DNA of 55,457 nucleotides from a virus. The notes beneath the pieces are model-generated. The model was not told where the DNA came from. It was given only the letters and a program-made list of their open reading frames with translations, and ran no database searches. Shown piece by piece: positions 1 to 123 of the stretch (positions are counted from its first letter, which is position 1; every line of letters begins with the position of its first letter). The stretch lies in IMG/VR virus record IMGVR_UViG_3300009156_000034, positions 1 through 55,457 of that record, one strand, 5' to 3'. The position numbers were made by a program, and so were the translations under genes.

Positions 1-123
1 TAGTCCTGTTGGTTGACTCAGCAACAACTTTCCGGGGTCTGCTCGCGCGAGGATCGAGGATCCTGGCTCAGTGAGCGCGGGCTCTTGAACGCGGGTGGGG
101 GGAGGGGTAGGGTTGAGGGTATG
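1..123. repeat. Left terminal inverted repeat (TIR-L), 123 bp
   Basis: Bases 1-123 are the exact reverse complement of 55335-55457 (compared base by base; first mismatch is position 124 vs 55334). Contains palindrome CTCGCGCGAG (42-51), tandem CGAGGAT x2 (48-61) and a block of five G-tracts (93-119). Confidence 0.95.
85..121 (+). promoter_or_regulatory. Candidate promoter inside TIR-L feeding a leaderless ATG
   Basis: TTGAAC (85-90), 17-nt spacer, TAGGGT (108-113, fits actinobacterial TAnnnT). The ATG at 121 lies 7 nt after the -10, consistent with a leaderless transcript. Confidence 0.4.

What the first reader, a model, noticed from the sequence alone, without database searches (positions are those of the whole stretch)
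1..123. Perfect 123-bp terminal inverted repeats on a siphovirus-like genome with no recognisable end-replication machinery
Positions 1-123 are the exact reverse complement of 55335-55457, and identity stops abruptly at 124/55334. Tailed actinophage genomes are normally described with cohesive ends, direct terminal repeats or circular permutation. Perfect TIRs are instead the signature of protein-primed linear replicons (tectiviruses, phi29-like phages, Streptomyces linear plasmids). They also mark hairpin-telomere replicons of the N15 type, whose two ends are halves of one palindrome. I went through every ORF of 60 aa or more. I see no family-B polymerase motifs, no terminal protein, no protelomerase or tyrosine recombinase, and no Tap/Tpg-like pair. 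The only replication enzymes are a prim-pol/SF3 helicase, a Cas4-like nuclease, RusA and an SSB-like protein. Either this is a new way of maintaining linear ends in a tailed phage, or the ends are an assembly or library artefact.
Basis: partly seen in the sequence, partly recalled or inferred. Interest (0 to 1): 0.85.

Follow-up and report, generated by a model that had tools for sequence, protein, structure and literature searches.

The report
Contig-end artefact of internal inverted repeat
The 123-base "terminal inverted repeat" is not a genome end: it is where a short-read assembler stopped at a real 1.4-kb inverted repeat inside a roughly 61-kb phage genome, so no new end-replication mechanism is needed.

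Summary
The sequence observation is correct. Positions 1-123 are the perfect reverse complement of 55335-55457, and identity stops at 124.

The ends of the window are not DNA ends. A public MEGAHIT contig is identical to the window plus 18 nt at each end, and its terminal inverted repeat is exactly 141 nt, which is MEGAHIT's k. Two other assemblies read straight through the window's right end into 4.7 kb of further phage DNA.

One sample's assembly holds exactly three pieces:
- the window segment, 55,211 + 2x141 nt;
- a 3,292 + 2x141 nt segment that also has a 141-nt terminal inverted repeat;
- a 1,412-nt repeat contig, whose length I predicted before looking it up.

This is the signature of a collapsed inverted repeat. 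The map is a large single-copy segment (LSC, 55,211) - inverted repeat (IR, 1,412) - small single-copy segment (SSC, 3,292) - IR (1,412), 61,327 bp in all. The window is the LSC alone with k-length overlaps (55,457 = 55,211 + 2x123).

Relatives whose two copies have diverged by 1-3% show the same IR-SSC-IR module inside single contigs, one of them in mid-contig.

The inner repeat edge at 123|124 is real. It lies just after a conserved promoter-like motif and start codon shared by both genome arms.

Verdict: the claimed terminal feature is an assembly artefact, and the underlying internal repeat is a modest, known kind of feature.

The parts
1..123 (+). Innermost 123 nt of the inverted-repeat (IR) copy that abuts the left arm. 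The rest of this 1,412-nt copy lies outside the window.
   Evidence: Perfect reverse complement of 55335-55457. It continues outward for at least 18 more identical nt in ena:ERZ25039601-series contig k141_6519287. It equals the inner end of the 1,412-nt IR contig k141_486703.
55335..55457 (-). Innermost 123 nt of the IR copy that abuts the right arm.
   Evidence: Two assemblies run from here outward through the whole IR into the small single-copy segment: ERZ27258587 k141_6983173 (L116) and JGI Ga0207428_10029010 (L124). Both are 100% identical to the window over the shared part.
124..55334 (.). Large single-copy segment (LSC, 55,211 nt), holding all recognisable phage genes. Left arm, + strand, about 124-8750: small early-type genes, RusA, M23 peptidase. 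Minus strand, 9000-46210: lysis and glycosylation genes, tail, head, portal, TerL. Plus strand, 46369-52842: HTH, PD-(D/E)XK nuclease, prim-pol/D5 helicase, two ParB-like proteins. Right arm, minus strand, 53011-55334: DUF2637, C5 methyltransferase, small membrane peptides.
   Evidence: Pfam and PHROG scans. Length arithmetic: 55,457 = 55,211 + 2x123 and 55,493 = 55,211 + 2x141.
100..123 (+). Conserved promoter-like motif GGGAGGGG-TAGGGT-N7-ATG at the inner edge of the IR. The ATG at 121-123 is the last triplet shared by both arms.
   Evidence: The same motif sits at the equivalent position in relatives L094/L114, L093, L092, L088, L087 and L099. In relatives the IR ends 4, 5 or 23 codons after the shared start codon. 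Promoter function is inferred, not shown.
55335..55358 (-). Second copy of the same motif, firing into the right arm.
   Evidence: (regex hit on the minus strand at 55358).

Best explanation
The window is one unitig, the large single-copy segment (LSC), of a phage genome that contains a pair of identical 1,412-bp inverted repeats (IR). These flank a 3,292-bp small single-copy segment (SSC). The map is LSC 55,211 - IR 1,412 - SSC 3,292 - IR 1,412, or 61,327 bp, written as a circle. A de Bruijn-graph assembler merges the two repeat copies into one node, so both ends of the LSC attach to the same node. The LSC is then written out with k bases of that node at each end in opposite orientation, which gives a perfect 'terminal inverted repeat' of length k. 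The inner edge (123|124 and 55334|55335) is the true repeat boundary. The outer edge is arbitrary. Shown: the graph structure, the read-through contigs, and the same architecture within single contigs of relatives. Inferred: the map closes into a circle (or a permuted or terminally redundant linear form); the window's own assembler used k=123; and the repeat carries a promoter that drives both arms.
For: (1) ena:ERZ27258601:k141_6519287 (55,493 bp) equals the window plus 18 nt at each end, and its terminal inverted repeat is exactly 141 nt, which is k. (2) ena:ERZ27258587:k141_6983173 and JGI Ga0207428_10029010 match the window's right arm at 100% and continue 4,689 and 2,607 nt past position 55457. 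(3) In ERZ27258601 the SSC is a separate 3,574-bp contig, 3,292 + 2x141, and it too has a 141-nt terminal inverted repeat. (4) I predicted that the IR would be a contig of exactly 1,412 nt from L116 coordinates 3401-4812. It was found at that length and sequence, k141_486703. (5) Logan contigs (k=31) stop exactly 30 nt into the repeat at both IR edges. (6) Window length = 55,211 + 2x123. (7) Relatives with diverged copies carry IR-SSC-IR inside one contig. In contig_221693 (69,280 bp) a 1,334-nt IR at 98.9% identity flanks 4,955 nt at contig position 32-40 kb, with both arms attached. In contig_61903 a 1,389-nt IR at 96.8% flanks about 3.7 kb. Two short-read relatives end in truncated inverted copies of 115 and 69 nt. 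(8) CheckV found only 33% of ITR-flagged contigs to be of high quality, against 90% of DTR contigs.
Against: I had no reads or coverage values, so the expected 2:1:1 depth of IR:LSC:SSC is untested. The second IR copy of the window phage is seen directly only for 141 nt at each of its two edges; its middle is inferred from the unbranched 1,412-nt unitig. In two assemblies, which may derive from the same reads, the same two junctions are the truncated ones (81 and 108 nt; 73 and 92 nt). I attribute this to low k-mer coverage but cannot prove it. One relative (67,055-bp contig_99662) has 5.07-kb terminal inverted repeats at 97.7% identity that stop at the same nucleotide on both ends, so a truly linear form somewhere in this lineage is not excluded. 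k=123 for the window's assembly is an inference.
Confidence: 0.9

Rival explanations
1. The genome is truly linear with multi-kilobase terminal inverted repeats (IR plus SSC, about 4.7-5 kb, at both ends). The 123 nt are their innermost part, and the ends are maintained by an unknown mechanism.
For: Relative contig_99662 (67,055 bp) has 5,070-nt terminal inverted repeats at 97.7% identity. Both ends stop at the same nucleotide, at the position equivalent to the window phage's SSC-left edge.
Against: In the window phage the SSC-left edge is joined to an inverted copy of the IR's outer end in at least three assemblies (141, 108 and 92 nt). It is therefore not a free end. In relative contig_221693 the whole module lies in mid-contig with both arms attached. 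No PolB, terminal protein or protelomerase was found. The 67-kb contig can equally be an expanded IR with almost no SSC, broken at the near-palindromic junction.
Confidence: 0.06
2. The 123-bp repeat marks real physical termini of a protein-primed (phi29, PRD1 or Streptomyces-plasmid type) or hairpin-telomere (N15 type) replicon.
For: A perfect inverted repeat at both contig ends. Promoters face inward from both ends, as in PRD1 and phi29 (own knowledge).
Against: Three assemblies continue beyond the 'end'. The repeat length changes with k. No PolB, terminal protein, Tap/Tpg or protelomerase was detected. The two ends are not halves of one palindrome, because 1.4 kb of repeat and 3.3 kb of unique DNA lie between them.
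Confidence: 0.01
3. This is a transposable (Mu-like) phage whose ends are transposon inverted repeats, with the 388-aa 'transposase' as its replication engine.
For: PHROG 4285 'transposase' hit at E=3e-69, and a weak match to an IS110 C-terminal domain in PDB 9mty.
Against: The flanks beyond the repeat are constant phage sequence in independent samples, not variable host DNA. The gene is absent from relatives that keep the repeat (L114, L135, L137). No MuA/MuB-type genes were found. No prophage copies turned up in 185,579 reference genomes.
Confidence: 0.01
4. The inverted junction is a library chimera (for example MDA fold-back) or a mis-join, and no second repeat copy exists.
For: Inverted chimeras are a known amplification artefact (own knowledge).
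Against: The IR-left-arm junction recurs in four assemblies from at least two samples. The SSC shows the matching pair of junctions. Relatives with non-identical copies carry both copies in one contig.
Confidence: 0.02

Closest known systems
Collapsed inverted repeat in de Bruijn-graph assemblies, as in plastid LSC/IR/SSC three-unitig graphs; 'ITR' contigs in CheckV and IMG/VR
   Same: There are three unitigs. Both ends of each single-copy unitig attach to the repeat unitig. The terminal inverted overlaps equal k. ITR-flagged viral contigs are often incomplete (CheckV, PMC8116208).
   Different: Nothing material. This is the explanation adopted. Coverage ratios could not be checked here.
IR-bounded genome segments with orientation isomers in tailed phages: Anabaena cyanophages A-1(L)/N1 group (bioRxiv 10.64898/2026.02.14.705889), phage Mu G segment, P1 C segment
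   Same: A lineage-conserved pair of inverted repeats at analogous positions, whose sequences differ between relatives. Headful-type terminase. No dedicated invertase was recognised, as in the cyanophage case.
   Different: Here the repeats are longer (1.3-5 kb, against 34 bp in Mu and 0.4-0.7 kb in P1 and the cyanophages). The small segment is 3.3-5 kb of ORFan genes rather than tail-fibre genes. Inversion would change no gene junction. Co-existence of both orientations is untested.
Herpes simplex virus S component: the c/c' repeats flanking Us carry oriS and the shared promoter and 5' leader of US1 and US12 (own knowledge)
   Same: The repeat boundary falls just after a promoter and 5' end that two different genes share and that reads outward from each copy. 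An A+T-rich spacer with short inverted motifs lies next to it.
   Different: There is no homology. The host and scale differ. Origin function and isomerisation are not shown here.
Protein-primed and hairpin-telomere linear phages (phi29, PRD1, N15)
   Same: Only the superficial picture of inverted repeats at the two ends of a sequence record.
   Different: The ends are not physical. No PolB, terminal protein or protelomerase is present. The sequence continues past the repeat.

Membership tests
De Bruijn-graph collapsed inverted repeat (assembly artefact) | Terminal repeat length equals the assembler's k and changes with k | tested here: met
   141 nt in two k141 MEGAHIT contigs. 30 nt in four k=31 Logan contigs. 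123 nt in the window, with 55,457 = 55,211 + 2x123.
De Bruijn-graph collapsed inverted repeat (assembly artefact) | Other assemblies read through the supposed end into further sequence | tested here: met
   L116 continues 4,689 nt beyond and L124 continues 2,607 nt beyond, both at 100% identity over the shared part.
De Bruijn-graph collapsed inverted repeat (assembly artefact) | Repeat and second single-copy unitigs exist with the predicted lengths | tested here: met
   IR contig of 1,412 nt, predicted before the look-up and identical in sequence. SSC contig of 3,574 = 3,292 + 282 nt.
De Bruijn-graph collapsed inverted repeat (assembly artefact) | Repeat unitig has twice the depth of the single-copy unitigs | not testable with these tools
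   No reads or contig depth values were available.
Protein-primed linear replicons (phi29, PRD1, Streptomyces linear plasmids) | Inverted repeats lie at the physical DNA ends | tested here: not met
   Read-through contigs.
Protein-primed linear replicons (phi29, PRD1, Streptomyces linear plasmids) | Family-B DNA polymerase and terminal protein encoded | tested here: not met
   No such hit in Pfam or PHROG scans of 50 ORFs, including all those of 200 aa or more. The only replication enzyme found is prim-pol/D5 helicase. A very divergent terminal protein cannot be excluded by sequence.
Hairpin-telomere phages (N15 type) | Protelomerase gene; the two ends are halves of one palindromic telRL site | tested here: not met
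   No protelomerase or tyrosine recombinase hit (same calls). The two ends are separated by 2x1,289 nt of further repeat plus 3,292 nt of unique DNA.
Transposable (Mu-like) phages | Ends joined to variable host DNA; DDE transposase plus MuB-type ATPase | tested here: not met
   Constant phage flanks in independent samples. Only an IS110-like ORF is present, and it is not conserved in relatives.
IR-bounded invertible segment / genomic isomerism in tailed phages | Two inverted copies flank a unique segment, conserved in position across relatives | tested here: met
   Window phage by graph. Relatives L137, L138, L139 and L114/L115.
IR-bounded invertible segment / genomic isomerism in tailed phages | Both orientations co-exist in one population | not testable with these tools
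   This needs read pairs or long reads spanning 1.4 kb. Only the SSC-right/IR/right-arm linkage was seen in contigs, and that may be assembler choice.
IR-bounded invertible segment / genomic isomerism in tailed phages | Dedicated invertase (Gin/Cin-type serine recombinase or Piv-type) | tested here: inconclusive
   No serine recombinase was found. The IS110/Piv-like 388-aa ORF exists but is missing from relatives that have the repeat.

The most novel reading that the evidence does not exclude
The IR-SSC-IR module is not a passive duplication. It is a selected control unit of an uncultured, actinophage-like siphovirus lineage. Each copy carries a promoter and 5' gene end that fires into one genome arm, so that both arms start identically, plus an A+T-rich spacer with short inverted motifs that could be a duplicated origin. 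The copies are kept identical by gene conversion. Recombination between them yields two genome isomers, as in plastids, the herpesvirus S component and the Anabaena cyanophages. In some members the repeat has grown to 5 kb and may even form real linear ends.
Probability: 0.3. Interest if true: 0.45.

Novelty: not a real feature. Interest (0 to 1): 0.15.

Why it matters
As submitted, the finding would have implied a new way of replicating linear phage ends. It does not. The practical lesson is that a perfect terminal inverted repeat whose length equals a common assembler k (123, 127 or 141) should be read as 'this contig abuts a collapsed inverted repeat and is incomplete'. It should not be read as 'complete linear genome'. 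In this case 6.1 kb, or 10% of the genome, is missing from the window. The real residue is modest: a soil phage lineage with a conserved 1.3-5 kb inverted-repeat pair whose inner edge always falls just after a shared promoter-like motif and start codon. It adds one more example of repeat-bounded genome architecture in tailed phages.

Tried and rejected
- DNA search of the first 3 kb against GenBank phages found no match. The nearest cultured relatives share only 46% (capsid, phiAsp2) and 39% (TerL) protein identity and have a different layout, so no isolate with mapped ends could be used.
- The TIR 28-mer is absent from IMG/VR.
- I tried to fetch the left ends of IMG/VR relatives through the M23 peptidase. 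Only 3 loci came back, none useful.
- Exact-match scans with the end of L093 and with an IR-internal 35-mer of L102 each returned only the known copy, so those contigs neither confirm nor deny a second copy.
- L098, L096, L102, L103 and L092 have no inverted repeat of 30 nt or more within the stretch held.
- The conserved 128-aa IR gene has no Pfam, PDB or phage-database match.
- ORFs of the SSC and IR have no Pfam hits, which argues against host DNA but gives no function.
- The prophage search in 185,579 genomes found one irrelevant hit.
- I considered the 388-aa IS110-like protein as a Piv-type invertase for the repeat. I rejected this as the general mechanism because relatives with the repeat lack it.
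- I considered hairpin fold-back. I rejected it because the repeat copies lie 55 kb and 3.3 kb apart, not adjacent, and the SSC is not palindromic.

Full report
OBSERVATION. Positions 1-123 are the exact reverse complement of 55335-55457. The first mismatch is at 124, and beyond it the two ends are unrelated. A 28-nt probe from the repeat occurs only at the two ends, and no shuffle of the window produced a match. The repeat is real sequence. Both arms end in GGGAGGGG-TAGGGT-TGAGGGT-ATG, so the last shared triplet is an ATG followed by different ORFs on each side.

WHAT THE WINDOW ENCODES. It is a siphovirus-type genome of 61% G+C.
- Head and packaging: TerL (Terminase_6N type), portal, MuF-like protein and major capsid protein.
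- A 2,368-aa protein with ADP-ribosyltransferase and NUDIX domains.
- Tail: major tail protein and tape measure.
- Cell-wall and lysis genes: glycosyltransferases, amidase and M23 peptidase.
- DNA metabolism: RusA, an HTH protein, a PD-(D/E)XK nuclease, prim-pol/D5 helicase, two ParB-like proteins and a C5 methyltransferase.

I found no family-B polymerase, terminal protein, protelomerase or integrase. The nearest cultured phages are distant: 46% capsid identity to Actinoplanes phage phiAsp2 and at most 39% TerL identity. IMG/VR, however, holds over a hundred relatives at 60-90% portal identity.

THE ENDS ARE NOT ENDS. Looking up window proteins in public assemblies gave independent assemblies of the same phage.
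- ena:ERZ27258601:k141_6519287 is 55,493 bp and is identical to the window with 18 extra nt at each end. Its terminal inverted repeat is exactly 141 nt, the final k of MEGAHIT as its contig name shows.
- ena:ERZ27258587:k141_6983173 (48,834 bp; L116) matches window 55457->43276 at 100% and then continues for 4,689 nt that are not in the window.
- JGI contig Ga0207428_10029010 does the same for 2,607 nt.
- Logan contigs (k=31) stop exactly 30 nt inside the repeat.
So the length of the 'terminal' repeat is 30, 123 or 141 nt depending on the assembler, while the inner edge never moves.

THE REAL STRUCTURE. L116 begins with 108 nt that are the reverse complement of its own positions 3401-3508. This suggested a larger inverted repeat (IR) spanning L116 3401-4812, or 1,412 nt, whose inner 123 nt are the window's repeat. 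It would flank a 3,292-nt unique segment (the small single-copy segment, SSC).
Two predictions followed for the cleanly resolved sample ERZ27258601, and both were met.
- The unique segment should be a contig of 3,292 + 2x141 = 3,574 nt with its own 141-nt terminal inverted repeat. That contig is k141_2151501.
- The repeat should be a separate contig of 1,412 nt. That contig is k141_486703, identical to the predicted sequence.
Logan contigs again stop 30 nt into the repeat at the outer edge.
The graph is therefore a dumbbell. Both ends of the 55,211-nt large single-copy segment (LSC) attach to one end of the repeat, and both ends of the 3,292-nt segment attach to the other. The simplest genome is LSC-IR-SSC-IR, 61,327 bp, written as a circle. 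The window is the LSC plus 2x123 nt, because 55,211 + 246 = 55,457. I infer that its assembler ended at k=123; from memory, a MEGAHIT k-list ending in 123 has been used at JGI, but I did not verify this.

SUPPORT FROM RELATIVES. A 128-aa gene inside the repeat is conserved in the lineage and has 585 homologues in public data.
- In relatives whose two repeat copies have diverged, the assembler does not collapse them, and the whole module sits in one contig.
  - ena:ERZ25039469:contig_221693 (69,280 bp) has arms of 1,334 nt at 98.9% identity around 4,955 nt. They lie at 32-40 kb of the contig, with left-arm-type and right-arm genes on either side.
  - ena:ERZ25039494:contig_61903 has arms of 1,389 nt at 96.8% around about 3.7 kb.
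- Short-read relatives show the truncated form.
  - IMGVR_UViG_3300047472_000148 has a perfect 115-nt copy at one contig end, with its partner 2,104 nt inside the other end.
  - JGI Ga0455949_0000001 ends in a 69-nt inverted copy of a site 5.6 kb in.
- Several IMG/VR contigs stop 60-130 nt outside the same conserved motif.
- In every case the inner repeat edge falls 0-23 codons after a shared start codon preceded by GGAGGGG...TAnnnT.
I read this motif as a promoter, possibly for a leaderless transcript, that drives both genome arms away from the module. That is inference only. The generic sigma-70 scan did not flag it.

OPEN POINTS.
- I had no reads, so the 2:1:1 depth, the physical termini and the presence of both orientation isomers are untested.
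- In ERZ27258587 and the JGI assembly, which may come from the same reads, the same two junctions are the truncated ones. I attribute this to thin k-mer coverage.
- One relative, contig_99662 (67,055 bp), has 5,070-nt terminal inverted repeats at 97.7% identity. Both stop at the same nucleotide, at the position equivalent to the window phage's SSC-left edge. It is either a repeat that has expanded across the SSC or a truly linear genome. I cannot tell which.
- For the window phage itself, a free end at that position is contradicted, because the SSC-left edge is joined to an inverted copy of the repeat in three assemblies.

COMPARISON WITH KNOWN SYSTEMS.
- As an assembly phenomenon this is the familiar three-unitig picture of plastid genomes. 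It also explains why CheckV found only 33% of ITR-flagged contigs to be high quality, against 90% of DTR contigs (PMC8116208).
- As biology, inverted repeats bounding a genome segment are known in tailed phages: the Mu G segment, the P1 C segment and, recently, Anabaena cyanophages. In the cyanophages, conserved 400-700-nt repeats flank a 30-kb region that exists as two isomers without a recognised invertase (bioRxiv 10.64898/2026.02.14.705889).
- The placement of a shared promoter and 5' end at the repeat boundary recalls the herpes simplex S component (own knowledge).
- Membership in the protein-primed, hairpin-telomere or Mu-like classes fails on tested defining features.

VERDICT. The sequence observation is confirmed. 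Its reading as genome termini is refuted. The claimed feature is an assembly artefact of a real internal inverted repeat. Interest is low for the finding as filed. The conserved repeat module is a minor curiosity that would be worth a read-mapping check.

Noticed in passing
window 3256-4422 (+): A 388-aa ORF matches PHROG 4285 'transposase' (E=3e-69). Only a 33-residue stretch resembles the C-terminal domain of an IS110-family protein (PDB 9mty). It has no Pfam hit. Its third-position G+C is 0.61, against 0.69-0.80 in the neighbouring genes. Relatives lack it at this locus; L135 has an unrelated 374-aa gene on the other strand there. It looks like a mobile insertion, and no IS ends were identified.
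   Followed up: partly
window 30829-37935 (-): A 2,368-aa protein lies between the MuF-like head protein and the capsid gene. It carries ADP-ribosyltransferase (exoenzyme-toxin type), NUDIX and Rho_N-like domains. It may be an ejected, host-modifying virion protein.
   Followed up: no
L135/L136 (ena:ERZ25039556:contig_99662, 67,055 bp): A relative with 5,070-nt terminal inverted repeats at 97.7% identity (106 mismatches, most in the outer 3 kb). Both contig ends stop at the same nucleotide, at the end of the last outward-reading gene. It is either an expanded repeat with almost no small single-copy segment (SSC) or a truly linear genome.
   Followed up: partly
L116 3914-4300 (+), inside the 1,412-nt repeat, outside the window: A conserved 128-aa protein (invariant PDPRF..AG.R...L.RLD) has 585 homologues in metagenomes and no Pfam, PDB or GenBank-phage match. 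Of the 119 best hits with a recorded contig, 92 have a longest contig under 2.5 kb. That would fit the gene sitting on a collapsed repeat unitig in many assemblies, but short contigs are also the norm in that collection.
   Followed up: partly
L116 1059-1808 (-), small single-copy segment (SSC), outside the window: A 249-aa protein is built largely of a 15-nt (5-residue) periodic repeat (D-G/R-x-D-R/G-type, e.g. DRDGYDREGF). Homologues occur in the SSC of relatives L135-L137 and in L111.
   Followed up: no
L116 4560-4700 and L114 2006-2110 (just outside the window's repeat): Immediately outside the 123-nt stretch lies an A+T-rich spacer of 55-85 nt. It is bracketed by a short imperfect inverted copy of the repeat's outer 20-45 nt. 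In L114 there are 3 + 4 copies of AGCACT/AGTGCT. The arrangement resembles an operator or an origin, and no function was tested.
   Followed up: no
window 9668-16535 (-): A block of cell-wall and sugar genes sits within a phage genome: an Amidase_2 endolysin, two GT2 glycosyltransferases, an NAD-dependent epimerase/dehydratase and a further glycosyltransferase. The ERZ27258587 assembly breaks at about 11.3 kb, which hints at strain variation there.
   Followed up: no
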